DNA of 64,000 nucleotides from Candidatus Eiseniibacteriota bacterium (GTDB lineage Bacteria; Eisenbacteria; RBG-16-71-46; CAIMUX01; VGJL01). The translations under genes were made by a program, and so were the position numbers. The notes beneath the pieces were generated by a model that worked only from the letters and a program-made list of their open reading frames with translations, was not told the DNA's origin and did no database searches. The DNA is taken from NCBI GenBank assembly GCA_963792585.1, contig CAWBWI010000006.1, positions 608,001-672,000 on the forward strand, given 5' to 3'. Positions 12,834 to 54,039 of this stretch are shown piece after piece. Numbering within the stretch: the first letter of the stretch is position 1; the number at the start of each line of letters is the position of its first letter.

Positions 12834-13016
12834 GTGGTGGTCGCTATGTGGGTTTCCTTATGGTGGATGCGGTCCCCCACGCCCTCCCCAGGACGCACGT
12901 ACCATCGCACCTTCCGCCGCCTATCTGCCTTCTCTCACGCCGATCCCAATCCCTTACCCGAGATCTGTCCACTAAACGTTAGGCGAGTGTTGCGATCGAA
13001 GGAGTCCATCCAATGA
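12834..13016 (+). CDS. Putative attI-spanning leader ORF
   Basis: Crosses attI as AAC-GTT (N-V); its TGA overlaps the ATG of cassette 1. True start uncertain (12834, 12846 or later). Confidence 0.45.
   Translation: MVVAMWVSLWWMRSPTPSPGRTYHRTFRRLSAFSHADPNPLPEICPLNVRRVLRSKESIQ
12960..12984 (+). other. attI site, crossover G12978^TTAGGC
   Basis: GTTAGGCGA is the exact reverse complement of TCGCCTAAC (13503-13511) ending cassette 1; no attC left arm upstream. Confidence 0.8.
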
Positions 13017-13489
13017 CACCACTCATTGCGTTGATTACCAGGGTGTGCGTTCTCGGTGCAGTGGCACTGACCCTCCACAATCCATGGTTTGAGGCAGAGC
13101 TCAGCGGCGCAGACGTCGTTCCGGCCACCGAGTCGCACGGATCAGCCTTCGTGGCTTGGTACTGGACGGAAGAGTCCGAGGTCAGCGACGTCTACATCTC
13201 ATACGGGAACCTCTCAGGCACCGTTACCGGGGCTTACGTGGCGAAGGGGACTGACTCTGAGAATGGGCCTGTCGCACGTACTCTCGCATCGAGTTACTTT
13301 TCTAGCCCCCTTTCCATGACAGTCGAGGCCCTCGCTTCTGACCGCGCTCTCTTGGAGGCGGACTCTGTATACGTGGTCATCACAACCACCGCGTACCCAA
13401 ACGGGGAACTCCGCGGTCGCTTCGTCGAGTCCCACGCCCCCGCAACGCGCGAGGCAACGTGGGGTTCAGTACGTGCCAGCTTCAGATAG
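13013..13489 (+). CDS. Secreted CHRD-domain protein with C-terminal TWG motif
   Basis: AELSGADVVP...YVVITTTAYPNGELRG; ends TWGSVRASFR. Confidence 0.75.
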   Translation: MTPLIALITRVCVLGAVALTLHNPWFEAELSGADVVPATESHGSAFVAWYWTEESEVSDVYISYGNLSGTVTGAYVAKGTDSENGPVARTLASSYFSSPLSMTVEALASDRALLEADSVYVVITTTAYPNGELRGRFVESHAPATREATWGSVRASFR

Positions 13490-13504
13490 GCCCACAACCT
13501 TGTC

Positions 13505-13635
13505 GCCTAACAGACGCATTCACCTGACGCGCTGGCCCGTCACGGCCCTGGCAGACAAGCATAGAAGGCAAGACCATCTCCTCGGGCTGCCAGGGCCGCG
13601 CCGGCCTCAGCCCGCAGGTGATGCGAACGTTAGAC
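13505..13635 (+). repeat. attC type A
   Basis: GCCTAAC...GTTAGAC, 131-bp imperfect palindrome. Confidence 0.9.
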
Positions 13636-13678
13636 ACGGTCTGACCAGACCGTGTGGTTCATCGCCTCTGGAGGGCTT

Positions 13679-14191
13679 ATGAGTGTGCGTGCAAGAAGTG
13701 CTACCTACTTGGTCTTCTTGGCTACGACGTTACTCGCGCCTGGCGTGGCATTTCCGCAGAGGGCCTGTGTATACACCAGCTTCGCCCTGCCGGACAGTGT
13801 TGTCCCTCCGCTGCAAGGCCAGGGTTGGGCGCACATGTTGTTGCTTGATGATCGCGATGACTGCGACTCGGCCGATTCAGTTTGGCTTAGCGTGAATTAT
13901 GGAAGCCTCGAAAGCAATGTCAACGGCGCTAGCATTCACCGTGGTGCTGTGGGCCAGAATGGCGACGAGATTCTCTCCCTATTCACCGAACTGTTCGAGA
14001 CCAACACCCATGTCAGGAAGTATCTTGATCCAGCTGTCTGTCGGGAGATCCTCAATCCAGAGGGTGCATTCTACTTCATCGTGACGACAGTTGATCACCC
14101 TGATGGTGCAGTTCGCGGACAGGTGTGGGTAGATCGCCAGTCCCCCGTATCCCGTTCCACTTGGGGTCGCATAAAATGCTCCTACAGGTAG
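13679..14191 (+). CDS. Secreted CHRD-domain protein with TWG motif
   Basis: ASIHRGAVGQNG...TVDHPDGAVRGQ; ends TWGRIKCSYR. Confidence 0.75.
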   Translation: MSVRARSATYLVFLATTLLAPGVAFPQRACVYTSFALPDSVVPPLQGQGWAHMLLLDDRDDCDSADSVWLSVNYGSLESNVNGASIHRGAVGQNGDEILSLFTELFETNTHVRKYLDPAVCREILNPEGAFYFIVTTVDHPDGAVRGQVWVDRQSPVSRSTWGRIKCSYR

Positions 14192-14198
14192 GAACCGT

Positions 14199-14329
14199 GT
14201 CTAACAGCCGCATTCACCTGACGCGCTGGGCCGTCACGGCCCTGGCAGAGACGCATAGAAGCTCGAACTATTACCGAGCGCTGCCAGGGCCGCGCCGGCC
14301 ACAGCCCGCAGGTGATGCGAACGTTAGAA
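14199..14329 (+). repeat. attC type A
   Basis: GTCTAAC...GTTAGAA. Confidence 0.9.
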
Positions 14330-14796
14330 GGTCTTTCACCAACTCCGAAGAATTCGCGATGTTCTCGGAAGCTCCTACCTGTCGTCAGCATGGAGGTCGG
14401 TGTCGAGCCTTCTCGCGCTGTGATCACACGCCAGATGACTTCGGCTCCCGCATCGCTGTGCCCTTTCCAACTAGGCCAGGGACTTCAAGAGCCGGCGGCG
14501 GCATGCCTGAGTTCTCCGAAGTGCCCTCAGATTCCACAACGGCTCATCCACTCGAGTCCCAGAAGCGTGGAAGAATCGGTTGTGCACGCGGGTTCGCCGG
14601 TGCAATCGCCGCCACCGGTCGCCATCACACGAAACCGGGTGGCCATCATTCAGCGAGTGAGGAAGCCGTTCTAACAGCCGCGTTCACCTGCCGCGCTTGC
14701 CCTGACACGGCTCTGGCGATGTCGCCAAGAACCCAAGAAACTGTCACCCGTGCTCGCCAGAGCCGCGCCAGGTCTGCGCCCGCAGGTGACGCGAAC
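14323..14796 (+). other. Frame-preserving 474-nt cassette without a recognisable gene (family C, copy 1)
   Basis: Three related copies; open in the attC frame from end to end. Confidence 0.7.
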
Positions 14797-14803
14797 GTTA
14801 GGT
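14669..14803 (+). repeat. attC type C
   Basis: TTCTAAC...GTTAGGT, 135 bp. Confidence 0.9.
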
Positions 14804-14865
14804 GTCTCTTGCGTCGGCCGTTATCACTCGCTGTCAGATCCCAGTTGGCACTCTTCCTTGAGGTC

Positions 14866-15252
14866 ATGTGCCTCACGGCCGTCGGGTGCTCATCCAGCAC
14901 AGTGGTTCAGCGAAGTGCACTCCCGACTCTCGCAGGCGATGCGTCCGGAACGAGTCATGCTCGCCTTGGCAAGAACGTCACCTTGCTTCTTGACGACCAT
15001 ACCAAGCTCAAGGGGAAGCTGATCCGAGTCTCCTGCCGCCCGGAGACCACCTTGGTCGTGGAAACAGACAACGCTTCGTCAGTTGACCCGTTCGCCGGGC
15101 GTCCCGATACCGTATCCGTCCCGCTGAGGGACGTCCGACGCATCATGACGCGCTCCACACCTGGCGGTGCTGTTATCGCGGCAGGGTTCTTTGTGGGAAT
15201 CGTGATTGTGGCGGTGGCCGTTGAGCCCAAGCTCTCGTTCCACCCAGATTGA
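14866..15252 (+). CDS. Hypothetical lipoprotein-like protein with C-terminal TM helix, in frame with the upstream attC ORF
   Basis: LTAVGC lipobox-like motif; near-identical copy at 19424. Confidence 0.55.
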   Translation: MCLTAVGCSSSTVVQRSALPTLAGDASGTSHARLGKNVTLLLDDHTKLKGKLIRVSCRPETTLVVETDNASSVDPFAGRPDTVSVPLRDVRRIMTRSTPGGAVIAAGFFVGIVIVAVAVEPKLSFHPD

Positions 15253-15277
15253 GGTCTGCAATGCTTTGTGGTTCGAC

Positions 15278-15408
15278 ACCTAACAGCCGCATTCACCTGA
15301 CGCGCTGGGCCGTCACGGCCCTGGCAGAGAAGCATAGAAGGCAAGATCATCGCCCCGGGCTGCCAGGGCCGCGCCGGCCACAGCTCGCAGGTGATGCGAA
15401 CGTTAGAA
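15278..15408 (+). repeat. attC type A
   Basis: ACCTAAC...GTTAGAA. Confidence 0.9.
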
Positions 15409-15876
15409 GGTCTTTCACCAACGCCGAAGAATTTCGCAATGTTCTCAGATGCTCCTGCCTGTCGTCAGCATTTCGGCCGGTGTCGAGCCTTCTCGCGCTG
15501 CAATCACACCGCCGATGACTTCGGCTGCTGCATCGCTGTGCCCTATCCAACTAGCCCGGGAACTTCAAAAGCCGGCGGCGGCATGCCTGAGCTCTCTGAA
15601 GCGCCCTCAGCATCCATCACGCCACAATTATTCGAGCTCCAGATGCATAGAGCTGCCAATCTTGCAGACGGATCCAATAGTGGAATTGCCGCCACCGGTT
15701 GCCATCCCACTGACTTGGGTGGCCATCATTCACCGCGAGAGGAAGCCATTCTAACAGCCGCGTTCACCTGCCGCGCTTGCCCTGACACGGCTCTGGCGGT
15801 GTCGCCAGGAACCCAGGAATCTGTCACCCGTGCTCGCCAGAGCCGCGCCAGGCCCGCGCCCGCAGGTGACGCGAAC
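15402..15876 (+). other. Family C cassette copy 2 (475 nt, +1 T near 15432)
   Basis: Homologous to 14323-14796. Confidence 0.7.
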
Positions 15877-15883
15877 GTTATGT
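15749..15883 (+). repeat. attC type C
   Basis: TTCTAAC...GTTATGT. Confidence 0.9.
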
Positions 15884-15926
15884 TGCGGTTGCGGCCAACG
15901 AGGCCTCCCATGGCGAGAACACTTTC

Positions 15927-16316
15927 ATGAGCAATCGCGTCCCTGGCATGCTCGTCTTGCTACTCACCTGCTTTGGGTGTGGCGACTCGCATGATCCCCG
16001 CCTCATTGTGGAAACCTCGATCACCATCAGCGGCACCGTCGTGGATAACTCTGATCAGTCACCTGCGGAGAGCGTCCTGGTTGTTCATGAGTTCTTCCAC
16101 AGCACCGACTCTTCTTGGACACCTTTCAACTCCTGCCTAACCAACGCGAACGGTTTCTACATCACCGGTGAGCCACAAACTGGTCGTCCATCTGGTCGGT
16201 TCTTGTTTCAGAAGCCTAGATACGAGCCCCTGATCCTCGGCGCCGAGGAGGCTCGTCAGGATAACAGCGGCTCCTTTGTCCTCGACGCGACCATTCAGCC
16301 AATCAGAGGAAATTGA
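15927..16316 (+). CDS. Lipoprotein, carboxypeptidase-regulatory-like beta domain
   Basis: CFGC lipobox; ISGTVVD...TNANGFY. Confidence 0.6.
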   Translation: MSNRVPGMLVLLLTCFGCGDSHDPRLIVETSITISGTVVDNSDQSPAESVLVVHEFFHSTDSSWTPFNSCLTNANGFYITGEPQTGRPSGRFLFQKPRYEPLILGAEEARQDNSGSFVLDATIQPIRGN

Positions 16317-16376
16317 CATGGGCCGTCACTCATTCGCCAATATCGGAGACCGATCGCCCACTGCTGAGGCCCGCGA

Positions 16377-16507
16377 ACATAACAACCGCATTCACCTGAC
16401 GCGCTGGCCCGTCACGGCCCTGGCAGAGAAGCATGGAAGCCAAGACCACCGCCTTGGGCTGCCAGGGCCGCGCCGGCCCCAGCCCGCAGGTGATGCGAAC
16501 GTTAGAC
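16377..16507 (+). repeat. attC type A
   Basis: ACATAAC...GTTAGAC. Confidence 0.9.
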
Positions 16508-16527
16508 GAGTATTACGCCGCAGAGCT

Positions 16528-17070
16528 ATGGCGTCCGTGTGGTCTGTCGGGACCCTCCTGATGGTCACTTCCTTTGCGATCGCCGCCGGCGAGAAGCCCA
16601 ATGCCGGGTACGGCTGTCGCCTAAGCGCCGATACTTCCCTCGTTGTAGGCTCTTCTTCACGCCGACTCGCGAAATTGGCCCAGTGTCCACCGCCCGTCTA
16701 CCCGGACAGCGCCAGGACCAACTGTATCTGTGGTCGCGTCCTTGCCCGTTGCAGCGTCCGCAGGTACGAGCCCATCCCGATTCGACGCTCCCCACCTCTG
16801 TTAGGTGATGGGGCCACCCGCCATGTCGAGATCATCACTGCTGAACCTCCAGGCATCTTCGAAGCCGCGGTCCGCCATGCACTCTCTCGCGCCCGCTTCT
16901 ACCTGCCGTCAGCTGCAGTAGGTGACACATCCGATGCAACGGCTTTGGTATCCGTTACGTTCGCACTCGATGCCAATGCTCGTTGGCGCGACTGCAAGTG
17001 CCTTCCCGATCACTACGCAGGGGCCACAGACAGCGTCATCGTCTCCGCTGCCATGTTGGTGATCCAGTGA
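16528..17070 (+). CDS. TonB C-terminal-like domain protein
   Basis: PPVYPDSAR...GRV...VEIITAEPPGIFEAAVRHAL. Confidence 0.6.
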   Translation: MASVWSVGTLLMVTSFAIAAGEKPNAGYGCRLSADTSLVVGSSSRRLAKLAQCPPPVYPDSARTNCICGRVLARCSVRRYEPIPIRRSPPLLGDGATRHVEIITAEPPGIFEAAVRHALSRARFYLPSAAVGDTSDATALVSVTFALDANARWRDCKCLPDHYAGATDSVIVSAAMLVIQ

Positions 17071-17077
17071 TGAGATC

Positions 17078-17208
17078 GTCTAACAGCCGCATTCACCTGA
17101 CGCGCTGGGCCGTCACGACCCTGGCAGAATTGCATAGAGGACCAATCTACCACCTCGGGCTGCCAGGGCCATGCCGGCCTCAGCCCGCAGGTGATGCGAA
17201 CGTTAGGC
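17078..17208 (+). repeat. attC type A
   Basis: GTCTAAC...GTTAGGC. Confidence 0.9.
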
Positions 17209-17223
17209 ACATGGGAGGCTGAG

Positions 17224-17802
17224 ATGTCCAAGTGCATGAGGGTGTTGCTTGCCTGTGCTCTTGCGATTGCTGTCCAGGCGGTAGCAGATCCAATCGACCA
17301 GTGTGGCCGCATCATTCCGAGCTGGGATTGCAGCATCTTCTACCCTCTCCAGGGCGGAGGCGCGAGGTACTCGATTGACGCGTCTTCGGTCCCGGACTCC
17401 TCATCGCGAATTGTTTGGCGGGTTGTTGGCGACGTGGTTTCCTGCGACCACGCCTGCAACGACGCTTCAGTCACCGATTGCATCATCAACAGCCATGTTT
17501 CCCCATGTCCATCGACTGACCTCGGATGCGGGGTACTTTCCAGACTCTATTATCCCGACATTGGGTATCTCTGCTTCTTCTGGACATCGCCCGTCTACGG
17601 TTCACTCCTAACACCCTCCCACGGCTTCGTAGCAGGGGACACGATCCACGTCGTAGGCATCGTTGACTACAGGGGTGTAACAGGTCCCTGTGACACTGCC
17701 GAAGGGTACTTGTGGAACGAAGTGCTCACTACTTGTTCAGACTCTGTTTCATCGGCCGAGGAAACGACCTGGGGAAGACTGAAGTTTCTCTTCCGGAGGT
17801 AA
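17224..17802 (+). CDS. Secreted Cys-rich two-repeat protein with TWG motif
   Basis: Signal peptide; CG...GFVAGDTIHVVG; ends TWGRLKFLFRR. Confidence 0.7.
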   Translation: MSKCMRVLLACALAIAVQAVADPIDQCGRIIPSWDCSIFYPLQGGGARYSIDASSVPDSSSRIVWRVVGDVVSCDHACNDASVTDCIINSHVSPCPSTDLGCGVLSRLYYPDIGYLCFFWTSPVYGSLLTPSHGFVAGDTIHVVGIVDYRGVTGPCDTAEGYLWNEVLTTCSDSVSSAEETTWGRLKFLFRR

Positions 17803-17810
17803 GGGCAGGT

Positions 17811-17941
17811 GCCTAACAGCCGCATTCACCTGACGCGCTGGGCCGTCACGGCCCTGGCAGAGACGCATAGAAGCCAAGACCATCGCCTCGGGCTGCCAGG
17901 GCCGCGCCGGCCTCAGCCCGCAGGTGATGCGAACGTTAGAC
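17811..17941 (+). repeat. attC type A
   Basis: GCCTAAC...GTTAGAC. Confidence 0.9.
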
Positions 17942-17945
17942 TGAT

Positions 17946-18344
17946 ATGAAACGACTTGATCACCGGCGGAGCAGGATTCTCATCATCGTACTTTGCCTCG
18001 TTATAGTGGCTGGGAGCGTTGATGGCGGCTTGTATCTGTCGTCGAAGCGCCCAGCGTCATCTCCGTCATCCACTTCGTTCGTGCGCCTGACAGCTCAATC
18101 CGCGATCCATCCTCTTATGGGATTCGCACTGCCGTTCATGTGCGTCGCGCGACAGGGTGGACTGGGTGGCTTCCTTGGAATCCTGGCGGTCCTGACGACG
18201 GCTCTTGTGGTTCTTGCAGCTCGCCACTTCCTGATTCGGGGGACCTGGAAAGCGCTCGGCGGGGTTCTCACCGCTGGGCTCTTCTCATATTGGTTGAGCA
18301 CACGATTGCTCTATGGAGTTCTCTATGGACCCGCTTGGTACTGA
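17946..18344 (+). CDS. Hypothetical membrane protein
   Basis: Several hydrophobic segments; paralog at 32795. Confidence 0.7.
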   Translation: MKRLDHRRSRILIIVLCLVIVAGSVDGGLYLSSKRPASSPSSTSFVRLTAQSAIHPLMGFALPFMCVARQGGLGGFLGILAVLTTALVVLAARHFLIRGTWKALGGVLTAGLFSYWLSTRLLYGVLYGPAWY

Positions 18345-18506
18345 GGCTCTGGCCTCCCTCGCGCTTGTTCGCGAGCGTGCGGTTGGTGCCATGGCGCTCC
18401 CGCACTCGAATACCAGGCTCATCCCAGAACCGCCCGTCCAGAATCGCGTCCGATCGTTCTCTCGCCTTGGAGTTGACCAGACTATTCCGAACCACTTGAG
18501 GCGCCA

Positions 18507-18637
18507 GTCTAACAGCCGCATTCACCTGACGCGCTGGGCCGTCACGGCCCTGGCAGAGAAGCATAGAAGGCAAGACCATCACCCGTGGCTGCCAGGGCCG
18601 CGCCGGCCACAGCCCGCAGGTGATGCGAACGTTAGGC
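18507..18637 (+). repeat. attC type A
   Basis: GTCTAAC...GTTAGGC. Confidence 0.9.
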
Positions 18638-19221
18638 CTCGTGTTGGCGTTCGAGCCTGCGTTGTCGTGCTCTTTCTCATCGTGTCGGCAATTGGGTGGT
18701 CGTTCGCTGATGCTCAGGATCCCCGCGACGCTTTCGACGGCTGCGGCGAGCTCGTCGACTGGAGCGGCTGCAGGTACCTCTACTCATACGACCAAGATGT
18801 CAATCTCCTTCTTGCTGACTTCGGTGGCTATGTCGCTGGAGATACAGTTCACGTCGTCGGCACAGCGAGCATCACTTTCGAGTCCTGCGCGGGAAGCCCC
18901 TTCTACTGGCGCCTCACCCCCAGTTCCATCACTCGGTGTCTTCCGTCCGACCTCGGGTGCGGAGTAATCGTTGGCAGCTTGGCCGCCGGGTGCTCGTACT
19001 GGTCCTCTGAAGCATATGGAAAACTCGACCTGCTTGACCGCCACGGGTTCGCGCCCGGTGACACGGTTCACGTGAGCGGGGTTGTGTGCTGGTGCGGGGG
19101 CCAGACATGTCATCCGTTTGGGGATGGTGAGATACGCAGTGAGAGGCTCAGAGCGTGTAGTGACTCACTTAGCGCAGTCGTACCCCTTACGTGGGGAAGG
19201 GTGCGAATGTTGTTCCGTTAG
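18631..19221 (+). CDS. Cys-rich TWG-motif protein lacking its own ATG; in frame with the upstream attC ORF
   Basis: NVRPRVGVRACVVVLFL... signal-like segment; ends TWGRVRMLFR. Confidence 0.7.
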   Translation, partial: VRPRVGVRACVVVLFLIVSAIGWSFADAQDPRDAFDGCGELVDWSGCRYLYSYDQDVNLLLADFGGYVAGDTVHVVGTASITFESCAGSPFYWRLTPSSITRCLPSDLGCGVIVGSLAAGCSYWSSEAYGKLDLLDRHGFAPGDTVHVSGVVCWCGGQTCHPFGDGEIRSERLRACSDSLSAVVPLTWGRVRMLFR

Positions 19222-19230
19222 GAGGACGAT

Positions 19231-19361
19231 GCCTAACAGCCGCATGCACCTGACGCGCTGGGCCGTCACGGCCCTGGCAGAGAAGCATAGAAGGCAAGAT
19301 CATCGCTCCGGGCTGCCAGGGCCGCGCCGGCCTCAGCTCGCAGGTGATGCGAACGTTAGGT
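19231..19361 (+). repeat. attC type A
   Basis: GCCTAAC...GTTAGGT. Confidence 0.9.
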
Positions 19362-19423
19362 GTCTCTTGCGTCGACCGTTATTACTCGCTGTCAGATCCC
19401 TGTTGGTACGCTTCCTTGAGGTC

Positions 19424-19810
19424 ATGTGCCTCACGGCCGTCGGGTGCTCATCCAGCACAGTGGTCCAGCGAAGTGCACTCCCGACTCTCGCAGGCGATGC
19501 GTCCGGAACGAGTCATGGTCGCCTTGGCAAGAACGTCACCTTGCTTCTTGACGACCATACCAAGCTCAAGGGGAAGCTGATCCGAGTCTCCTGCCAGCCG
19601 GAGACCACCTTGGTCGTGGAAACAGACAACGCTTCGTCAGTTGACCCGTTCGCCGGGCGTCCAGATACCGTATCCGTCCCGCTGAGGGAGGTCCGACGCA
19701 TCATGACGCGCTCCACACCTGGGGGTGCTGTTATCGCGGCAGGGTTCTTCGTGGGAATCGTGATTGTGGCGGTGGCCGCTGAGCCCAAGCTCTCGTTCCA
19801 CCCAGATTGA
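19424..19810 (+). CDS. Duplicate of the 14866 lipoprotein-like cassette
   Basis: Near-identical translation. Confidence 0.55.
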   Translation: MCLTAVGCSSSTVVQRSALPTLAGDASGTSHGRLGKNVTLLLDDHTKLKGKLIRVSCQPETTLVVETDNASSVDPFAGRPDTVSVPLREVRRIMTRSTPGGAVIAAGFFVGIVIVAVAAEPKLSFHPD

Positions 19811-19835
19811 GGTCTGCAATGCTTTGTGGTTCGAC

Positions 19836-19966
19836 ACCTAACAGACGCATTCACCTGACGCGCTGGACCGTCACGGCCCTGGCAGAGAAGCGTAGAACGC
19901 AAGACCATCAGCCGGGGCTGCCAGGGCCGCGCCGGCCTCAGCTCGCAGGTGATGCGAACGTTAGGA
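19836..19966 (+). repeat. attC type A
   Basis: ACCTAAC...GTTAGGA. Confidence 0.9.
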
Positions 19967-20419: not shown

Positions 20420-20543
20420 AGCCGCATTCACCTGACGCGCTGGGCCGTCACGGCCCTGGCAGAGAAGCATAGAAAGCAAGACCATCGCCCCGGGCTGCCA
20501 GGGCCGCGCCAGCCACAGCCCGCAGGTGATGCGAACGTTATGT
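20413..20543 (+). repeat. attC type A
   Basis: TCCTAAC...GTTATGT. Confidence 0.9.
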
Positions 20544-46428: not shown

Positions 46429-46473
46429 TGAAGAGATTGCCCTACGACTCGGAAAGTGGTGAAAACCAATCAT

Positions 46474-46573
46474 GCCTAACAGACCGATGGAGCAGAAGGA
46501 TCGGCCTTGTCACTTCGCTGGCAGGAGCCAGCGCCGCGCCAAGACCGCGCGCTGCTCAACGCTGACGTTGGGC
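46474..46573 (+). repeat. Heterologous attC, 100 bp
   Basis: GCCTAAC...GTTGGGC. Confidence 0.7.
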
Positions 46574-47013: not shown

Positions 47014-47132
47014 CATTCACCTGACGCGCTGGGCCGTCACGGTCCTGGCAGAGAAGCATAGCCAACAAAACCATCACCCGGGGCTGCCAGGCCCGCGCCG
47101 GCCTCAGGACGCAGGTGATGCGAACGTTCGGC
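47014..47132 (+). repeat. attC type A lacking its left end
   Basis: Begins at CATTCACCTG, ends GTTCGGC. Confidence 0.8.
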
Positions 47133-47147
47133 GAAAGGTGTAGAGCG

Positions 47148-48092
47148 ATGACGCAGTCCGAGGACATTGCTGAGCGGTTCTGGAGTCTTCCGCAGAAGCC
47201 TGATGAGGAATCGCGGCGAGAGCAGCTCTTTCTGGACGACGTGATTCAGAAGGCGCATCTCGATCGGGAAATCGCATCCCGCCTTGCGGGGGTGGAGACG
47301 GCCCTCGACGTGGGGGCTGGGACGGGGCGGTTCTCCATACCGTTGGCGGCACGCGGCATTGCGGTCACGCATCTCGATATTGCCGGGGGCATGATCGAGA
47401 GAGCCCGCCACGAGGCTAGGCAAGCCGGAGTTCTGGGGCGGCTGACCTTCCGGCAGGGACGGTTCTCCGACCTCGAGGAATATGCTGCTCGGGAATTCGA
47501 CCTCGTCATATGCTCGGATGCCCCCGTGTCTTATGCCTACCCGGACCATGCCGCAGCCATCACGGCCCTGGCGCGTGTTTGCGGCAAGGCGATCGTTCTC
47601 AGTGTTTCCAGCAGGCTGGGATATATGTCGCTGTGCCTGAATCCTCTGCAGAAGGAGCCGTACTTCGCGGATCCCGAAGACGAGGACCCGCTTGTCCGCT
47701 TCTACCTCCACAACGGGCGCGCCCAGCTTGCTTCCTGGGAGCCACCGATTGACACCGCGTGGAACGCCTTCAGGACGGGCCTCCTTTCGGACCCCCAGGA
47801 GACGGATCGTGACTATCGGGCTGGACACGCCCCGTGGCCACACAACTATCTGTTCCAGCCAGCAGAGTTGGAGGGGTTGCTGCGGTCGAATCACGTGGCC
47901 GACATCAAACTCGCGGGTCCGGGCGCGCTATCGCGAGGGCTTCCGAATGTCGTCCTTCGGAAGCTCCTGTTGACAGATGAGCACCGTCAGCGCTTCCTGG
48001 ACTTGTGCTACGAGTTCGATTCCCAGCCCTCGGTTTGTGGCCTCGGGAAGGACAATCTTGTAGCGTCGGGACGCGCGTCCGCCGAGTGGTAG
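47148..48092 (+). CDS. Class I SAM-dependent methyltransferase
   Basis: ALDVGAGTGRF; FDLVIC. Confidence 0.85.
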   Translation: MTQSEDIAERFWSLPQKPDEESRREQLFLDDVIQKAHLDREIASRLAGVETALDVGAGTGRFSIPLAARGIAVTHLDIAGGMIERARHEARQAGVLGRLTFRQGRFSDLEEYAAREFDLVICSDAPVSYAYPDHAAAITALARVCGKAIVLSVSSRLGYMSLCLNPLQKEPYFADPEDEDPLVRFYLHNGRAQLASWEPPIDTAWNAFRTGLLSDPQETDRDYRAGHAPWPHNYLFQPAELEGLLRSNHVADIKLAGPGALSRGLPNVVLRKLLLTDEHRQRFLDLCYEFDSQPSVCGLGKDNLVASGRASAEW

Positions 48093-48097
48093 CAACC

Positions 48098-48196
48098 GCC
48101 GGACAAGCGGCCGAAACCGTCCTGCGGCGCCGGGCGAGCCCAGTCCGTCGGAGGATCGAATCTGGCGCCGCCCGCGGGTTAGCCGCAGCATTATGC
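48098..48196 (+). repeat. Degenerate attC
   Basis: GCCGGAC...ATTATGC; ends match the neighbouring cassette ends imperfectly. Confidence 0.45.
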
Positions 48197-48217
48197 GTCT
48201 ATAGGAAGGAGAGTGTC

Positions 48218-48634
48218 TTGATTGAAGCCCTCATTGGTGTCGCGGTAGGTGGTCTCACGATCGGGTTGGCACGGATCATTCGTGGGCAGCGTTGGTTGTA
48301 TTCATTAGGTCTGCTCACTCTGCCCAGCTTGTACGCATTCTTTGCTCTACAAGCCGGTGAGCAGGCTGTGGGCGTCAAAGAAATGATCTACGGGGTTCCG
48401 TTTGTCGTAGTTGGGCTGGTTTTCGCATTTGTGAGCGTCCGTCGGTCAGCGGTAGTGGTCGGTGCATTCTGGATACTTCACGGGCTGTACGACTTGACGC
48501 ATAGTCAGTTCATTACAAACGCTGGTGTTCCTGGTTGGTATCCCGTCTTCTGTTTCTCGGTTGATGTTGTTATCGGTGCATATCTACTATGGCTGTCGCG
48601 TCGTATCTCCAACGCGAATCTTCGCCAGGCGTAA
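48218..48634 (+). CDS. Small membrane protein
   Basis: AAGGAG RBS, TTG start; HGLYD...VPGWYPVFC. Confidence 0.7.
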   Translation: MIEALIGVAVGGLTIGLARIIRGQRWLYSLGLLTLPSLYAFFALQAGEQAVGVKEMIYGVPFVVVGLVFAFVSVRRSAVVVGAFWILHGLYDLTHSQFITNAGVPGWYPVFCFSVDVVIGAYLLWLSRRISNANLRQA

Positions 48635-48692
48635 GTCGTGGCTTTGCCATTCTCGGAAGGCGGTAGGATCTGTTCAGGTTATTGAAGACGAC

Positions 48693-48764
48693 GCATAGCC
48701 CTTCCGTCAACCGGACAGTCGGCAAGCTGCTCATTTTGACCTCCGGTCATGTCATACGCCATGC
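48693..48764 (+). repeat. Degenerate attC
   Basis: GCATAGC...GCCATGC. Confidence 0.4.
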
Positions 48765-48788
48765 TCACTGTGCTACGGCGGTGATGAC

Positions 48789-49325
48789 ATGAATGACATG
48801 ATGCGCGCGCGCGGTCACCTGGTTGGATGGCTAGTCTACACAAAGGCCGGTCGTGTCCTGCTCCTCTTGAGCGTCCTTATCCCCGTCACCATCCGAGTTT
48901 ATCGATACCTGAATCACGACCGTTGGGTGGTGGATCCGACCACATATGCCCCACCATCTCCATCTGAATCCACCTCGTACGGAGCACCGCAACCGGGACG
49001 CCATGACGCAACGGCGCGTTCTCAGGTTACTTTGCCTTCCACCGGTATTGGTGGAAACTATCTTTCCGCGGCGGGTGACGGATCTGACCCCTTTGTCGCT
49101 GTAGACAAGGACGCATTGGGTGAGCTCACCAAGGCCGCAAGTCGCAAGGACTACTACGGCGTAGCCGACCTTCTTGCGTCTGGCCGTGTCTTCACCGTCA
49201 AGGACGGTCAAACTGGTCCCCGTGTCCTGGACCATGGATTTGTGAAGACGCGTGTTCGAATACTTAATGGCGCAAATGCTGGCCGGTCAGGCTGGGTGCC
49301 TTCCGAATGGGTCCACGACCGATGA
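48789..49325 (+). CDS. Membrane-anchored hypothetical protein (SH3-like tail)
   Basis: N-terminal TM; GRSGWVPSEWV. Confidence 0.6.
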   Translation: MNDMMRARGHLVGWLVYTKAGRVLLLLSVLIPVTIRVYRYLNHDRWVVDPTTYAPPSPSESTSYGAPQPGRHDATARSQVTLPSTGIGGNYLSAAGDGSDPFVAVDKDALGELTKAASRKDYYGVADLLASGRVFTVKDGQTGPRVLDHGFVKTRVRILNGANAGRSGWVPSEWVHDR

Positions 49326-49332
49326 ACTCGGA

Positions 49333-49463
49333 GCATGACCGCCGCGTTCGCCTGCCGGGTGGGTCCGTCACGGCCCTGGCAGAGAAGGATAGAAGGCTAA
49401 ACCATCACCCTGGGCTGCCAGGGCCGCGCCGGCCCCAGCTCGCAGGTGATGCGAACGTTAGGC
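49333..49463 (+). repeat. attC, B/A chimera with GAC core
   Basis: GCATGAC...GTTAGGC. Confidence 0.82.
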
Positions 49464-49491
49464 CGACAACCAAAGTTGTGGGAGGATAATC

Positions 49492-50130
49492 ATGAGCAAG
49501 GTATTCGTGAACATCGGACTTAGCCTTGACGGCTACATGGCACCGGAAGGGATGACCATTGAGAATTGGGAGAAGCCTGAGTACAAGAACTGGGGCGCCA
49601 AGTGGGGTGCGCTGATGGGCTGGATCATTAATCAGCAGTACTTCCGCGAGAACCTCAAGCTCGGACCAGGGGGAGAGACCGGTCCGGTCAATGACATGGT
49701 TCGTAACACCACGGAGCGCATCGGCGCCAACATCATGGGCAAGCGAATGTTCGAGCAAGGCGAGGTCTCATGGCCCGAGGAGGCTCCGTTTCACACTCCA
49801 GTATACGTTCTTACCCACGAGAAGCGCGAACCTTGGGTCCGGCCGGGCGGGACGACATTCTACTTCGTCAACGACGGCCCGGAGAGCGCCCTTGAGCAGG
49901 CTCGGGAGTCTGCGGGCGGTCGCGATATTCGCATCGCGGGCGGCGCGGACGTGATCCAGCAGTACTTGAACCTGGGTGTCATCGATGAGCTGGAAATCGC
50001 CTTGGCGCCGGTGCTGTTCGGCGGTGGGAGACGTCTCTTCGAGAACCTACGCGAGCCGGCGCCGAGGTTTCGAATTGACAAGGTGCTTGATAGTCCAGCT
50101 GCAACACACTTGCGCTATGTGCGTGAGTAA
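49492..50130 (+). CDS. DHFR/RibD C-terminal family protein
   Basis: SLDGY...IMGKRMF...IAGGADVIQQYL. Confidence 0.88.
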   Translation: MSKVFVNIGLSLDGYMAPEGMTIENWEKPEYKNWGAKWGALMGWIINQQYFRENLKLGPGGETGPVNDMVRNTTERIGANIMGKRMFEQGEVSWPEEAPFHTPVYVLTHEKREPWVRPGGTTFYFVNDGPESALEQARESAGGRDIRIAGGADVIQQYLNLGVIDELEIALAPVLFGGGRRLFENLREPAPRFRIDKVLDSPAATHLRYVRE

Positions 50131-50134
50131 GGCG

Positions 50135-50198
50135 GCCTAACAACCGGTTGCAGCGGACGGTCTGCGGCACGGCCCGCCGCTGAACCGGAGCGTTAGGA
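50135..50198 (+). repeat. Short attC, 64 bp
   Basis: GCCTAAC...GTTAGGA. Confidence 0.8.
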
Positions 50199-50651
50199 GG
50201 CACGACACCCTGAGTAGCAATTTGCTCGAGGACGTTTGAAGGGCCAATCCTGTTGGCCCTCGCTCTTGCGGAAGGGTCGAATGCCATCCATCCAGCCGAA
50301 CCGTTGACTACGCTGAATCCACTGCGGCCGGATGGTGCTCCTCCCCCTCCAACGAAGAACCTGCTCTTTGACCCCGACTCAGACGCCTCCAAGCCCTTGT
50401 GGCCCAAGCGAATCCACTTCAAACGAAGCCCACTTTCAATTTGGTCGTGCCTGGACTCGGTGGTAGGCTTGATGCGCACAGCGGATGCGGAAGATTGAAA
50501 CGACGGGGAATCGCTGGTGCAGGAATCCGGGGGCCGCGCGATGAGCAAGGTGCCCACTATCTCTTCCTCGACCTCATCCTCTCCCTCCACGAGTGGATCC
50601 ACACCCTCGTACTTGCCAATCAAGAAGGGCGTTCAAGGCGTTCCTCCTAAC
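50192..50651 (+). other. Gene-less cassette body, family D copy 3
   Basis: Homologous to 19960-20419. Confidence 0.65.
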
Positions 50652-50666
50652 AGCCGCATTCACCTG
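50645..50666 (+). repeat. Truncated attC type A (left 22 nt only)
   Basis: TCCTAACAGCCGCATTCACCTG then unrelated sequence. Confidence 0.75.
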
Positions 50667-50684
50667 CGGGCGGGGTTGAGTGGC

Positions 50685-51137
50685 ATGAAAGCGGGGTGTC
50701 CTTTGAGATTGTTGCTCCTCTACTGCCTCTGTGCCATCGCATTTCCCGGCTTATCGCATGCTCTGCCACTGGATCTCCACGTCTTCCCCGACGATCCTAG
50801 ATGGGGCGACCCAGTGGTAGTCCTTCTCGTCGGAGGCCTCGACCCAAGCTGTTCTCGAGTCGACTCCGTGTTCTGTAGCCAAACTGCTGCGTACCGTCTC
50901 GACATGAACGTCCTGATCGTCAGGACCCAAGAGCGATGCCTCGCCATCTGGGAGGCGTTCGCGGAAAACTGCGTGTTCAATCACCTTCCATTCGGCGATT
51001 ACACCATCGTTGCAAGGGTCTTCTACGATGACCTGTCTGAACCGCCCGCCCTTGTGGATTCGGTGGCGTTTTCAGTGAAGCTACCAACCGCCACGCACGC
51101 GTCGAGCTGGGGTCACGTTCGGGGACTGTTCCGATGA
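50685..51137 (+). CDS. Secreted protein with SWG motif
   Basis: Signal peptide; ends SWGHVRGLFR. Confidence 0.65.
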   Translation: MKAGCPLRLLLLYCLCAIAFPGLSHALPLDLHVFPDDPRWGDPVVVLLVGGLDPSCSRVDSVFCSQTAAYRLDMNVLIVRTQERCLAIWEAFAENCVFNHLPFGDYTIVARVFYDDLSEPPALVDSVAFSVKLPTATHASSWGHVRGLFR

Positions 51138-51150
51138 CACAGTGGCGAGT

Positions 51151-51281
51151 GCATAACAGCCGCTTTCATCTGACGCGCTGGCCCGTCACGGCCCGGGCAG
51201 AGAAGCACAGAAGGCAAGACCATCTCCCGGGGCCGCCACAGCCGCGCCGGCCTCAGCTCGCAGGTGATGCGAACGTTGGTC
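51151..51281 (+). repeat. attC type A
   Basis: GCATAAC...GTTGGTC. Confidence 0.85.
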
Positions 51282-51291
51282 GGGGTGTGCG

Positions 51292-54039
51292 ATGAAACTG
51301 CTGACCTGGAGCTTCGCGATCGGGATCATTCTCGCCGGAGTCGCTCTACCGTGCCTTCCGTGCGTTGCCGTCTCAGAGTGCGTGGACTACCGCGACTACG
51401 AGTGTGCCACCCGCGTCCTGAGCCAAGCATACTGGGTCGAAACCGAGGCGGTACTCGACATTGATATCTCCGGGAACTACGCATATTTGGCAGCGGCCGA
51501 CGGGGAGTTCCTGGTTGTCGATGCAACGGACCCCGTGCATGTCCAGGTCGCGAGCCGAATCAGCACCCCGGGTTCTGCCGTTGCTCTGGCTTTGTCACAG
51601 ACCTACGCGTATGTCGCGACACTTCCGACGGGTCTGCAGGTGGTCGACATCTCCGACCCGGCCCATCCGCGAATCGTCGACAGCGTGGCTACACCCAATT
51701 CAGTCAGTGACGTGATGGTCTTCGGCTCCCACGCGTACCTGGCGGAAGAGTCCTCCGGTCTCAGGATCCTTGACCTGTCCGATCCCGCCCACCCAGTCGA
51801 GATCCCCCAAGGTATTGCGGGTCGGGTGTCTCACCTTGGACTGTCTGACGGAGTTCTCATTTTGACGAACCCGTCGTACGGACTCAGCTTCTTCGATCTC
51901 TCCACCCCGGACAGTCCGAGCCCGCTGTCGACGCTGGCTCTGCCTCACGCATCCCACGTGGCGGTTCTCGGTCTCCATGCGTTCGTGTCATGCGGGACCA
52001 CGGTCACTTCCGTCGACATCGCCGATCCCGCAAACCCCCAGGTTATCGGGAGTGTCACGGTGCCGTCCGTTGCCGGGCGCATCGTGACATTGGAACCCCA
52101 TGCGTTTGTGACCACATCGCAGACCAGCGTGCAAGTCCTGGACGTTTCGGATCCGACGGCTCTGAGAATCGAGCTCTCGTTGGGTCCATCTGAGGGAAAC
52201 AAGGCCATCGCGATTGATGGGGACCGTGTGTGTATTGGCGGCATTTTCGGCTCCTTCACGGTCATCGAGATCGCGAGCTTGGAAACGCCGGCTGTCGCGA
52301 GCGTACAGCTTCCCGAGTGGGCAAGAGTTGTCGCAACCCGTGCGAACTACGCATATGTCGGTTGCGACTTCCGAGGCATCCAGGTCGTGGACTTGACAGA
52401 TCCCCGGAATGCGCAGATCACAGATCAGTTCAGCACCGGCCCCGGCCATGTCGCGATGGCCGCATCCGGGTCTTTCATATATGACCTCAGCACGGACTTT
52501 GGTCTAACGATCCTGGATGTCGGAGATCCCGCCCACCCGGTCCAAGCGTCGGGCTGGGGTGACCTCCGGGACCTCCAGGATCTCGACGCTTCTGGGGGTT
52601 TCGCCTGCTACACGTACACCCATGGACTCGCGGCCCTGGACGTAAGCGATCCGTACCACCCCCGGGGCCTTGGAGAAGTCGAAATCTCGACGGGTGCCCG
52701 CAAGGTGGCAGTGACCGGGACGCACGCTTTCGTCACGGACGGCAGCCGTCGGATCACAACCGTGGATCTGCAGGGCCAGGCGGGTCCTGCCATCGCAGGA
52801 ACCTTCGATATTGAGGCTGGAGGCGTCACGGGGATCGCGGCCTCGGGTTCCTACCTCTACACCGTGGGCGGTCTGGATTTCTGGGCAGTCGATGTAGTGG
52901 ATCCTGCCAACCCTCTACCTATTGGGCATCTCGTCCTTCCAAGCAACGGAGGTGACCTCGTCGTTGATTCCGGTTACGCGCACATCCTTGGCGCCAAGGG
53001 TCTCTTTGTGGTCGATGTGAGGGACCCGGGGCATCCACAGCTGGCGGGGAACGTCTGCTCACCGGGATCACCTCAGAACCTCGCAGTCATGGCGACTCAT
53101 ACGGTTGTCGCCAGTCTGGACTCCGGTCTCCAGGTCCTCCACCGCCATTGTGGGAACCCTTCTGCGCCTGCTCCCTTCACCCTCACCTACCCGGCAGACC
53201 TCGAAAGCCTGACCGTACGGGATCCAACTTTGAGCTGGCGGGCCGCGCAACCGACGTTCCCAGGAGCGACCGTCGAATACGTTGTCATCTGGTCAGAGTC
53301 CCCGACCTTCACCCCCGCAGATTCCGCCTTCGCCGGGCGCGACACGACGTTCACGTTTGGGCCATCGGCCCTCGATCAGACCCGGACCTATTACTGGAAG
53401 GTCCGAGCGTCGAGTACCTCCGGGCGGAGTCGGTGGTCCGATCCAGGCGGGGGGCGCTCGTTCCACACCGGAGTCTTGACACCCGTCGTACTCGCGGCGA
53501 GCGTGCACTCGACCCAGGAGGGAATCCTCCTGACCTGGGACTTGTTGGCCGACCCGCAGATGGTCGCCGTTGCCGTCCTTCGCCGTGACCCACAACATCC
53601 GGAGTGGCTTCCGCTCTTCGTGGACCCTCCCGGCGGAGAGGCGGTGGGCCAATATCTTGATCGCAACGTCGAACCATGGGTTTCGTACGAATACCTCGTG
53701 GAGGTCCGGGACGACCTCGGCATCGTGACCCAAGTTGGTCCGATCGCCGCCCAACGCACTTCCGTGGAACTGGATCTTGCGGTATACCCATCCCCTGGTC
53801 GGGGCGCCGTGAACGTTGCCTTGAACCTGCCGTCACCGGGTGACGCTGTGCTGCGTCTGTTCGACGCGTCCGGACGCGAGGTCGCGCACAGAGATTTCCG
53901 GGGACTCCGGGCGGGCACGCACACCGTTGTTTGGACACCGGACGACGATCGCACCGATCACGTGCCATCGGGATCGTACTGGCTTTGCCTCTACACGGAG
54001 AGCGGGCGGCGGTGCGTCCCCTGGTCGCTGGTTCGGTGA
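51292..54039 (+). CDS. Secreted LVIVD-repeat protein with FN3-like and C-terminal FlgD/T9SS-CTD-like domain
   Basis: Repeated GLQVVDISDP..P units; YYWKVRA; VYPSP...LRLFDASGREV...PSGSY. Confidence 0.8.
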   Translation: MKLLTWSFAIGIILAGVALPCLPCVAVSECVDYRDYECATRVLSQAYWVETEAVLDIDISGNYAYLAAADGEFLVVDATDPVHVQVASRISTPGSAVALALSQTYAYVATLPTGLQVVDISDPAHPRIVDSVATPNSVSDVMVFGSHAYLAEESSGLRILDLSDPAHPVEIPQGIAGRVSHLGLSDGVLILTNPSYGLSFFDLSTPDSPSPLSTLALPHASHVAVLGLHAFVSCGTTVTSVDIADPANPQVIGSVTVPSVAGRIVTLEPHAFVTTSQTSVQVLDVSDPTALRIELSLGPSEGNKAIAIDGDRVCIGGIFGSFTVIEIASLETPAVASVQLPEWARVVATRANYAYVGCDFRGIQVVDLTDPRNAQITDQFSTGPGHVAMAASGSFIYDLSTDFGLTILDVGDPAHPVQASGWGDLRDLQDLDASGGFACYTYTHGLAALDVSDPYHPRGLGEVEISTGARKVAVTGTHAFVTDGSRRITTVDLQGQAGPAIAGTFDIEAGGVTGIAASGSYLYTVGGLDFWAVDVVDPANPLPIGHLVLPSNGGDLVVDSGYAHILGAKGLFVVDVRDPGHPQLAGNVCSPGSPQNLAVMATHTVVASLDSGLQVLHRHCGNPSAPAPFTLTYPADLESLTVRDPTLSWRAAQPTFPGATVEYVVIWSESPTFTPADSAFAGRDTTFTFGPSALDQTRTYYWKVRASSTSGRSRWSDPGGGRSFHTGVLTPVVLAASVHSTQEGILLTWDLLADPQMVAVAVLRRDPQHPEWLPLFVDPPGGEAVGQYLDRNVEPWVSYEYLVEVRDDLGIVTQVGPIAAQRTSVELDLAVYPSPGRGAVNVALNLPSPGDAVLRLFDASGREVAHRDFRGLRAGTHTVVWTPDDDRTDHVPSGSYWLCLYTESGRRCVPWSLVR

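What the first reader, a model, noticed from the sequence alone, without database searches (positions are those of the whole stretch)
12834..51295. attC sites encode a frame-locked translational relay that couples each cassette to the next regardless of order
Seen: in intact type A/B attC sites the AAC of the left core and the AAC before the GTT crossover are 117 nt (39 codons) apart. That frame is stop-free (NSRIHLTRWAVTALAEKHRRQDHHPGLPGPRRPQPAGDANV), whereas the other two frames of the type A consensus have stops. Entry: otherwise unrelated cassettes put an in-frame ATG/GTG right after or overlapping their own stop, e.g. 14197, 15261, 16318, 17070 (TGATG), 17809, 19229 (TAGGAGGACGATG), 21240, 23457, 24778, 27708, 28435, 29094, 30530, 31068, 31975, 32646, 34158, 34874, 35668, 36335, 36994, 38899, 39606, 49322, 51134. 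Exit: the peptide stops in an ATGA overlap with the next gene (13679, 15927, 17946, 20566, 22765, 23693, 25760, 31283, 32795, 42407, 51292), stops close to the next start (17224, 29728, 30682, 35826, 37202, 47148, 49492), or fuses in frame. Established: IntI crosses over at G^TT, attC hairpins can impede downstream cassette expression, and class 1 attI1 carries a small translation-enhancing ORF. Inference: because the crossover lies inside a fixed Val codon, any shuffling keeps the relay. Ribosomes could melt each attC hairpin, limit polarity and re-initiate on the next gene. I do not know of this being described as an array-wide rule.
Basis: partly seen in the sequence, partly recalled or inferred. 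Interest (0 to 1): 0.95.

Follow-up and report, generated by a model that had tools for sequence, protein, structure and literature searches.

The report
Ribosome relay frame across integron attC
In this bacterium's long array of swappable genes, the repeat between genes keeps one reading frame that nearly always starts at the end of one gene and stops at, or runs into, the start of the next, so ribosomes are probably handed on whatever the gene order; the principle is known from clinical integrons, but an array-wide version was not found in print.

Summary
This is a chromosomal integron with 41 long attC sites; 35 intact ones keep 117 nt and an open crossover (GTT) frame. The open frame alone proves little: attC box motifs leave it open in 67 of 106 relatives' sites. 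The real signal lies in the flanks. Upstream ATGs fall 19/5/2 by frame in 30 unrelated cassette ends (p=4e-5) and have Shine-Dalgarno-like sites. The frame ends at, near or fused to the next gene in 29 of 31 cassettes (p=5e-5). Seventeen decayed copies outside the array repeat the entry bias (13/1/1) but not clearly the exit bias (p=0.18). Nine foreign attC in the same array and 12 of 13 relatives show none; one relative shows a weak version. The peptide shows no sequence selection, nonsense avoidance is weak, and translation is not shown. Short ORFs across attC and attI are described for class 1 integrons (PMC8876359). An array-wide phase lock was not found in 8 paper searches, but this scan reported it twice on other genomes. 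Verdict: new variant of a known kind.

The parts
11016..12026 (+). Integron integrase intI, co-oriented with the cassettes
   Evidence: TIGR02249, 432 bits against a cut-off of 265; the only over-cut-off copy in the genome
12132..12697 (+). Toxin-antitoxin-like gene pair (MazF/ChpB-like second gene) between intI and attI, with a sigma70-like site at 12085-12113
   Evidence: the antitoxin role of the first gene is inferred from position only (no family hit)
12834..13016 (+). ORF across attI (GTG 12834, ATG 12846/12867) in the GTT frame, ending in ATGA overlap with the first cassette gene (ATG 13013); crossover GTT at 12978. Frame +2 is also open there, so this is one ambiguous case
13505..51281 (+). 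35 intact 117-nt attC sites (types A and B). Left AAC at 13509, 14203, 15282, 16381, 17082, 17815, 18511, 19235, 19840, 20417, 21264, 21988, 22565, 23463, 24784, 25608, 26289, 27717, 28441, 29112, 30539, 31140, 31996, 32664, 33360, 34167, 34880, 35683, 36353, 37060, 38917, 39615, 42180, 49337, 51155. All are stop-free in the GTT frame
   Evidence: top-strand RNA hairpin median -70 kcal/mol, bottom-strand DNA hairpin z=-7.9
14197..51136 (+). Relay start codons of distinct cassettes: 14197, 15261, 16318, 17070, 17809, 18391, 19229, 20309, 21240, 23439, 24778, 27708, 29094, 30530, 31068, 31975, 32646, 34158, 34874, 35668, 36335, 36994, 38899, 39606, 42156, 49322, 51134
   Evidence: each open through its attC; median anti-SD pairing -6.0 kcal/mol against nulls of -3.1 to -4.2
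14323..14803 (+). Type C unit (also 15402-15883 and 29232-29712): a 352-nt cassette with no clear gene plus a 121-nt attC. An ORF from the ATG at +36/+37 runs through the attC into the GTT frame without its own stop
   Evidence: no codon-position signal (18/22/20) and no Pfam or Rfam hit
19229..19810 (+). Clearest relay example: TAG, AGGAGG, ATG, attC, then in-frame fusion with the next cassette gene
34287..34865 (+). Cassette whose gene is open from the GTT and has no ATG/GTG/TTG before its hydrophobic signal-like segment (first TTG at +63): a candidate headless gene that needs the relay start at 34158
   Evidence: signal-peptide reading by eye (inference)
37789..37918 (+). 116-nt attC with a 1-nt loss in the loop; relay broken (real mutation or assembly error, not resolved)
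40859..54626 (+). Nine short foreign-type attC (left AAC about 40859, 41624, 43584, 44268, 44840, 45549, 46478, 50139, 54563; 46-88 nt) with no relay signal: internal control
47006..47132 (+). Long attC that has lost its left end (truncated cassette)
50541..51137 (+). Relay ORF running through an attC remnant (50648) and fused in frame to the last cassette gene after a deletion
54842..54967 (+).
59657..59780 (+). Decayed 117-nt attC copy with an in-frame stop (counter-example)

Best explanation
The native long attC of this integron carries a translated relay frame whose peptide sequence does not matter. Ribosomes that finish a cassette gene re-initiate at an overlapping or adjacent ATG/GTG that usually has its own SD. 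They read 40 codons through a hairpin of about -70 kcal/mol and unfold it, cross the fixed GTT codon, and then either terminate on or next to the next gene's start and re-initiate, or continue in frame into it. Entry is set by the upstream cassette and exit by the downstream one, so shuffling keeps the chain. Cassettes bred in this array have been filtered for this phase; imported cassettes with short attC have not. SHOWN: spacing, open frame, phase of starts and exits, SD-like pairing, replication of the entry bias in decayed copies, and its absence in controls. INFERRED: co-transcription, actual translation, hairpin melting, re-initiation, and selection as the cause.
For: Entry: ATG at -30..-7 by frame 19/5/2 in 30 distinct ends, p=4e-5, and 14/5/1 (p=9e-4) in the 18 cassettes left after removing 10 that share a C-terminal WG motif. 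The start nearest the gene's stop is in frame 0 in 24 of 24 that have one, of 28 hand-curated cassettes (one is a tie), and 23/1/1 of 31 by an automatic rule. In-phase TGA stops are ATGA in 8 of 12 against a 27.6% genome baseline, p=0.005. SD: 27 relay starts median -6.0 kcal/mol, 26 cassette-gene starts -7.15, nulls -3.1 to -4.2, p<=4e-4. Exit: 29 of 31 coupled against 13 and 18 in the other frames, permutation p=5e-5; strict rule 23 of 31, p=0.008; automatic 23/9/14, p=7e-4. Out of sample: 17 decayed copies with unrelated flanks give ATG 13/1/1, p=3e-5, and their starts keep SD pairing (median -6.4, n=12). Length: non-3n changes in 1 of 31 nearest-neighbour pairs against 8 of 15 in the related attC family of G049 at similar divergence, p=2e-4. 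Controls are flat. Precedent: PMC8876359 section 3.2.
Against: No translation data exist; RNA-library contigs cover the region but cannot show transcription. No codon-position or synonymous bias in the peptide: 21 synonymous and 67 non-synonymous changes against 92 and 261 possible. Nonsense avoidance is weak. Type A copies with a stop are 0 of 27 against 4.2 expected (P about 0.01), but the copies are not independent and only about 1.7 distinct nonsense changes are expected; decayed copies are 3 of 13 against 4.2 (P=0.33). The exit bias is not significant in decayed copies (12/8/10 of 17, p=0.18). The -14..+20 and +/-15 windows and the hand-picked genes were set after seeing the data. Most downstream genes have their own SD, so they may not need a relay. 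In class 1 reporters, deleting attC changed downstream expression in a minority of 10 cassettes (PMC11511950 section 8). The related long attC of G049 has no lock.
Confidence: 0.6

Rival explanations
1. The frame is translated, but its job is to keep the mRNA covered by ribosomes (against RNases or Rho), not to deliver ribosomes to the next start.
For: Entry is much tighter than exit, and only entry replicates in decayed copies. Downstream genes mostly have their own SD. Gene-less type C cassettes are open end to end with no codon signal. Cassette translation governs stability of the polycistronic mRNA in class 1 arrays (PMC11511950 abstract and discussion).
Against: Exits in the main array cluster at the next start more than chance allows, which coverage alone would not require.
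Confidence: 0.17
2. The phase is a footprint of how cassettes are made. The attC is laid in frame a few codons into the gene that follows the captured gene in a natural operon, so the coupled start and SD are inherited rather than selected for relay.
For: Relay starts look like natural operon junctions (ATGA, SD). Seven of 31 genes are in frame with the GTT and some look headless. Each cassette's two ends are complementary a little beyond the R box (3.9 against 2.3 of 10 matches, p=2e-7), which hints at a templated origin.
Against: In-frame insertion predicts that all exits are fusions, but 22 of 31 are overlaps or near stops. The bias persists in copies about 10-35% diverged whose R boxes have decayed. 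No mechanism of phase-specific insertion is known to me (recalled).
Confidence: 0.13
3. The relay is mainly a shared start module: it supplies the SD, ATG and an N-terminal extension to start-less cassette genes, and coupling elsewhere is secondary.
For: The cassette at 34287 has no standard start before its hydrophobic segment, the cassettes at 18631 and 21384 have only a GTG inside it, and 7 of 31 exits are fusions. Synthetic attC can act as translated linkers (PMC7439510).
Against: Applies to a minority; 22 of 31 exits terminate. Signal peptides were judged by eye.
Confidence: 0.05
4. By-product: one ancestral attC was open by chance, box motifs put stops in the other frames, and palindromic pairing or shared cassette ancestry yields the ATGs.
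For: The GTT frame is open in 67 of 106 relatives' sites. All copies share ancestry. No selection on the peptide.
Against: Cannot explain start phase in unrelated flanks. Mirror CAT triplets in the cassettes' own 5' ends are 3/8/5 by frame, and only 6 of 20 in-frame ATGs are mirrored. Positions -6 and nearer were excluded, duplicates and WG-motif cassettes were removed, and decayed-copy flanks are unrelated.
Confidence: 0.05

Closest known systems
Short ORF within attC of class 1 integrons (Jacquier et al. 2009, Mol Microbiol 72:1475; original not held; read through review PMC8876359 section 3.2)
   Same: An ORF starts after the upstream stop, crosses the attC hairpin and is proposed to raise downstream translation by termination-reinitiation.
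   Different: As the review describes it, an occurrence in particular class 1 cassettes and constructs. Here it is a statistical rule over about 30 unrelated cassettes of a chromosomal array, locked to the GTT frame by a constant 117-nt length, with SD-bearing starts and matched exits.
ORF-11, ORF-17 and ORF-18 of attI1 (PMC8876359 section 3.1 passages)
   Same: A short ORF with its own SD and an irrelevant peptide crosses the crossover point and takes its stop from the incoming cassette.
   Different: Those serve the first cassette only, and ORF-11 usually stops at the TAG at positions 3-5 of the core (frame +2 to GTT). Here the relay sits at every native attC, uses the GTT frame itself, and ends 6-110 nt further on at the next gene or fuses with it.
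[quoted passage not shown]
   Same: An attC can be both a recombination site and an in-frame translated linker.
   Different: Engineered; here natural, and fusion is only 7 of 31 exits.
Sedentary chromosomal integron with IntI, attI and homogeneous attC
   Same: Integrase family, attI core, attC boxes and hairpin, toxin-antitoxin and duplicated cassettes.
   Different: intI is co-oriented with the array, no Pc was identified, and the attC carries the phase lock.

Membership tests
Integron (IntI/attI/attC) | Integron integrase over the curated cut-off | tested here: met
   TIGR02249, 432 bits against 265
Integron (IntI/attI/attC) | attC with R''-L''-L'-R' boxes, an extra-helical base and a bottom-strand hairpin | tested here: met
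   (z=-7.9)
Integron (IntI/attI/attC) | Cassettes bounded by matching R' and R'' and found in different orders | tested here: met
   Matching ends; duplicates in different neighbourhoods
Integron (IntI/attI/attC) | Pc promoter driving one transcript through the array | tested here: inconclusive
   Only one + strand sigma70-like site (12085-12113) in 10500-22000, at about chance level overall; contigs cannot show transcripts
attC-spanning coupling ORF (Jacquier type) | Start at or near the upstream stop, frame open through attC | tested here: met
   22 of 31 distinct ends by the automatic rule; 24 of 28 curated have the nearest start in frame
attC-spanning coupling ORF (Jacquier type) | Stop near the downstream start | tested here: met
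   29 of 31 fused, overlapping or within 15 nt; not significant in decayed copies
attC-spanning coupling ORF (Jacquier type) | The ORF is translated and raises downstream expression | not testable with these tools
   Needs ribosome profiling or reporters
ORF-11-type attI ORF | Stop supplied by the TAG at positions 3-5 of the 7-bp core | tested here: not met
   The relay frame is the GTT frame; the TAG-ending frame is closed inside all 39 main attC (open by frame 38/1/0). At attI both frames are open
Protein-coding small gene | Purifying selection on amino-acid sequence or a known domain | tested here: not met
   Changes by codon position 31/28/29, synonymous share as expected by chance; no Pfam hit for 4 ORFs that contain the relay peptide

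The most novel reading that the evidence does not exclude
Some chromosomal integron lineages have a translation grammar. The attC is a phase-locked ribosome track and cassettes are made or filtered to fit it at both ends, so that a 30-40-cassette array acts as one order-independent chain of coupled genes. The chain includes gene-less cassettes that exist as translated spacers and start-less genes that borrow their start from whichever cassette precedes them, and the relay outlives recombination when cassettes settle as operons. It has arisen more than once (weak second case in G019; two earlier scan notes), and the inherited start-plus-SD may record how cassettes are born.
Probability: 0.35. 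Interest if true: 0.85.

Novelty: new variant of a known kind. Interest (0 to 1): 0.66.

Why it matters
How cassettes far from the promoter get expressed in long arrays, and what cassettes are selected for at birth, are open questions; recent work makes upstream translation the main determinant of polarity (PMC11511950). A built-in, order-independent relay would explain how a long array with 117-nt, -70 kcal/mol hairpins avoids polarity. It gives a sequence signature that tells native from imported cassettes and from decayed ones, changes start-site annotation for fused genes, and offers a natural design rule for synthetic shuffling devices. It can be tested with simple reporters.

Tried and rejected
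Open frame as evidence: rejected, because it is the default in other attC families (43 of 70 sites; 67 of 106). 3n length as a general attC rule: rejected; relatives' lengths fall in all three classes. Palindrome mirror as the source of ATGs: rejected. Shared C-terminal module as the source: rejected. Functional peptide: no codon signal and no Pfam hit. ncRNA in gene-less cassettes: no Rfam hit at gathering scores in 12000-60000. Collection scans with a two-arm pattern were too narrow: 1 locus in genomes, 2 in metagenomes, and 0 in viral contigs with a right-arm pattern. L012 and L013 are 117 nt, open and have an in-frame ATG; L011 is 103 nt and closed. An exact right-arm pattern found no relative among 40 genomes. 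Single homologs in relatives are mixed: L035 (117 nt) and L044 (114 nt) are open with an upstream start, L037 (118 nt) is closed. Sequencing runs: all 20 holders had small shares. Four were laid: close relatives' contigs cover intI and several cassettes, also in two RNA libraries, but contigs show neither transcription nor order, and the loose ends and paired indels may be mis-laid repeats, so they were not used as evidence. The G049 pattern failed and was redone. One search stopped on a coordinate slip after printing the palindrome test; the SD part was redone. No Pc was found. No protein-database or structure job was run, since the peptide is not under selection.


Full report
Setting. The window is C6:608001-672000 of a 5.4-Mb, 7-contig genome, 84% complete. 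An integron integrase (11016-12026, TIGR02249 432 bits) is followed on the same strand by a MazF-like toxin-antitoxin pair, an attI core (GTT at 12978) and a cassette array running to about 55 kb. A few more short-site candidates (near 48091, 55839, 56717) were seen by eye and not counted.

Observation check. 35 intact sites have 117 nt between the two AAC and are stop-free in that frame. Three type C sites are 121 nt, two sites are 116 nt and one lacks its left end. Measured from the crossover GTT, 38 of 39 main sites are open, including all type C; the other frames are open in 1 and 0 (the truncated and the decayed site were left out). One site with its flanks folds as RNA at -96 kcal/mol over 201 nt (z=-4.5); the median over 117-nt sites is -70.

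The open frame is not the evidence. In 106 distinct attC from 13 related genomes the GTT frame is open in 67, against 30 and 23 for the other frames, because the conserved L and R boxes put TGA and TAG in the other two frames. The peptide shows no codon signal: distinct changes by codon position are 31/28/29, and 21 of 88 are synonymous against 92 of 360 possible. Copies with a stop: type A 0 of 27 against 4.2 expected (P about 0.01, but copies are related and only about 1.7 distinct nonsense changes are expected); type B 0 of 8 against 0.5; decayed copies 3 of 13 against 4.2 (P=0.33), two of the three at the last codon next to a downstream start. Constant length is more telling: non-3n length changes occur in 1 of 31 nearest-neighbour pairs here against 8 of 15 in the related attC family of G049 at similar divergence (p=2e-4). 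Assembly indels in G049 cannot be excluded.

Entry. I removed 6 duplicate ends, 3 type C, the truncated and the decayed site (30 of 41 kept). ATGs starting at -30..-7 fall 19/5/2 by frame (p=4e-5); positions nearer than -7 were excluded because the R'' consensus favours -6. ATG is the most biased of all trinucleotides seen 6 or more times; -60..-31 and -240..-121 are flat and -120..-61 gives 16/1/11. Among 28 cassettes with a clear + strand gene, 24 have an ATG/GTG within -14..+20 of the stop and the nearest is in frame in all 24. One is a tie, and in one the overlapping start is closed again before the attC, where a second GTG takes over. Four have none: the cassettes ending at 13509, 18511, 26289 and 42180. 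That window was chosen after seeing the data; an automatic longest-ORF rule gives 23/1/1 of 31, 22 running through the attC. In-phase TGA stops are ATGA in 8 of 12 (my tally) against 27.6% genome-wide (p=0.005). Removing 10 cassettes with a shared C-terminal WG motif leaves 14/5/1 in 18 (p=9e-4). Mirror CAT triplets in the cassettes' own 5' ends are 3/8/5, so palindromic pairing does not explain it, although own ends do pair a little beyond the R box. Pairing with the genome's own 16S 3' end, not used to choose the starts, gives a median of -6.0 kcal/mol for 27 relay starts, -7.15 for 26 cassette-gene starts and -3.1 to -4.2 for five nulls (p<=4e-4).

Exit. Of 42 cassette 5' ends I kept 31, dropping 4 duplicates and 7 without a clear + strand gene. 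In the GTT frame 7 fuse, 11 end in a 4-nt ATGA overlap, 11 stop within 15 nt of the start and 2 are far. The other frames give 13 and 18 coupled (permutation p=5e-5; with +/-5 nt, 23 of 31, p=0.008). The automatic rule gives 23/9/14 of 31 (p=7e-4). The two far cases have their own signals: a strong SD at 35000, and a BrnT toxin-antitoxin cassette at 39037. At attI a GTT-frame ORF from 12834/12846 also ends in ATGA at the first gene, but frame +2 is open too.

Independent sets. An HMM found 18 further copies outside the main set, mostly in three clusters on contig C1, with 5-40 substitutions against the consensus and often decayed R boxes. Their flanks are unrelated to each other and, except one at 58%, to the array. 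ATG phase is 14/1/1 in all 18 and 13/1/1 in the 17 with an aligned left arm (p=3e-5), with SD pairing kept (median -6.4, n=12). One copy has a 9-nt deletion, and two with a lost right arm end at a stop just before an ATG. Their exit bias is not significant (12/8/10 of 17, p=0.18), and three copies are broken by a stop or frameshift (59657, 54842, C1:269192). Negative controls: 9 foreign attC in the same array give ATG 1/0/2 and exit 3/6/2. G049, with a related 118-123-nt attC, gives ATG 1/3/5 in 18 ends and no relay running through. All 13 relatives together give ATG 19/16/15, entry 26/19/23 of 96 and exit 47/42/48 of 103. One relative, G019, has 24 of 28 sites of 3n length over six length classes, 27 open, ATG 8/2/2 (p=0.019, uncorrected, 1 of 13) and no exit bias: suggestive only. 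These arrays were sampled in part, in stretches of up to 20 kb around integrase or attC hits.

Order independence. With the crossover at G^TT (established knowledge, recalled), entry and frame belong to the upstream cassette and exit to the downstream one. Duplicated cassettes occur behind different neighbours, for example the family at 18631/21384/27837 and the family at 14797/19355, and fuse in frame each time. Exceptions exist: a 1-nt insertion in the cassette at 15402, and cassettes with reverse-strand genes (24904, PIN domain; 39735). Type C cassettes carry no clear gene, yet their ORF runs through the 121-nt attC into the GTT frame. A deletion at 50648 joins a relay ORF in frame to the last gene, a one-in-three chance on its own.

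Mechanism. Most likely termination-reinitiation on both sides of a translated hairpin (0.6). Rivals are mRNA coverage without hand-over (0.17), a footprint of cassette genesis (0.13), a start-donor role for headless genes (0.05) and a by-product (0.05). Sequence organisation is shown; co-transcription, translation and benefit are inferred. RNA-library contigs from a close relative cover intI and several cassettes but cannot show transcription.

Literature. PMC8876359 (passages and section 3.2 read) describes ORF-11/17/18 at attI1 and says a short ORF within attC can relieve the stem-loop by termination-reinitiation, citing Jacquier 2009, which is not held. PMC11511950 (abstract, sections 8 and 11) finds cassette translation decisive and attC deletion minor in most of 10 cassettes. 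PMC8024014 (passages) notes an attC deletion that may increase coupling. PMC7439510 (passages) shows synthetic attC working as peptide linkers. PMC2945992 (passages) treats transcription, not coupling, in a Vibrio array. Eight searches listed no paper whose title or abstract start describes an array-wide phase lock; most listed papers were seen only as listings, subscription journals are largely missing, and no supplements were read. Two earlier notes of this scan report the same kind of relay in other genomes; a sequence look-up found no look-alike, so they are probably other attC families. I did not test them.

Verdict. A real, statistically strong feature of one integron lineage. It works like the class 1 attC and attI coupling ORFs and extends them to a whole array. 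New variant of a known kind; interest 0.66.

Noticed in passing
window 12085-12697: A MazF/ChpB-like toxin gene with a small upstream partner and a sigma70-like site sits between intI and attI on the same strand; it could be the transcript source for the array.
   Followed up: partly
window 13013-51137, 10 cassette genes: Ten cassette proteins end in a shared [T/S]WG-x5-[F/Y]-R/H-type motif and most begin with a signal-like segment; three carry a CHRD domain. Possibly a C-terminal sorting signal (recalled, not tested).
   Followed up: partly
window 14323-14674, 15402-15754, 29232-29583: Three copies of a 352-nt cassette with two stop-free + frames, no codon signal and no Pfam or Rfam hit; depth in relatives' contigs is high over this region, though attC repeats inflate it.
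   Followed up: partly
window 19960-20418, 22108-22566, 50192-50650; L012: A repeated cassette of unclear coding strand: a 147-codon reverse-strand frame lies in register with the + strand relay ORF; a homolog in L012 differs by a 3-nt deletion in that ORF.
   Followed up: partly
G000:C1:1934600-1941700, C1:267200-269300, C1:1880000-1881500, C3:1030026: Clusters of decayed long attC without an integrase nearby, spaced like cassettes: settled former arrays that now look like operons.
   Followed up: yes
all native cassettes: Each cassette's 5' and 3' ends are complementary for about 2 or more bases beyond the 7-bp R box (3.9 against 2.3 of 10, p=2e-7), up to 13 of 14 bases in one cassette.
   Followed up: partly
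window 24904-25609 and 39037-39616: Toxin-antitoxin cassettes: a reverse-strand PIN-domain gene, and a BrnT/BrnA-like pair with a promoter-like 5' end seen by eye.
   Followed up: no
window 40859-56760: The distal array is a mosaic of imported cassettes with short attC, some decayed, next to ordinary genes (methyltransferase, reductase-like, hydrolase).
   Followed up: partly
L078, L079, L088 (G019:C3): An array whose attC lengths are 45, 48, 54, 84, 99 and 102 nt in 24 of 28 sites, all multiples of three: a candidate second phase-locked array.
   Followed up: partly
L015 and L017: Runs of near-identical, very short gene-less cassettes (about 280-320 nt period) in the G041 and G050 arrays.
   Followed up: no
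window 15430, 33480-34168, 37793, 54842: Single-base frame changes at short homopolymers or unknown positions that may be long-read assembly errors.
   Followed up: no
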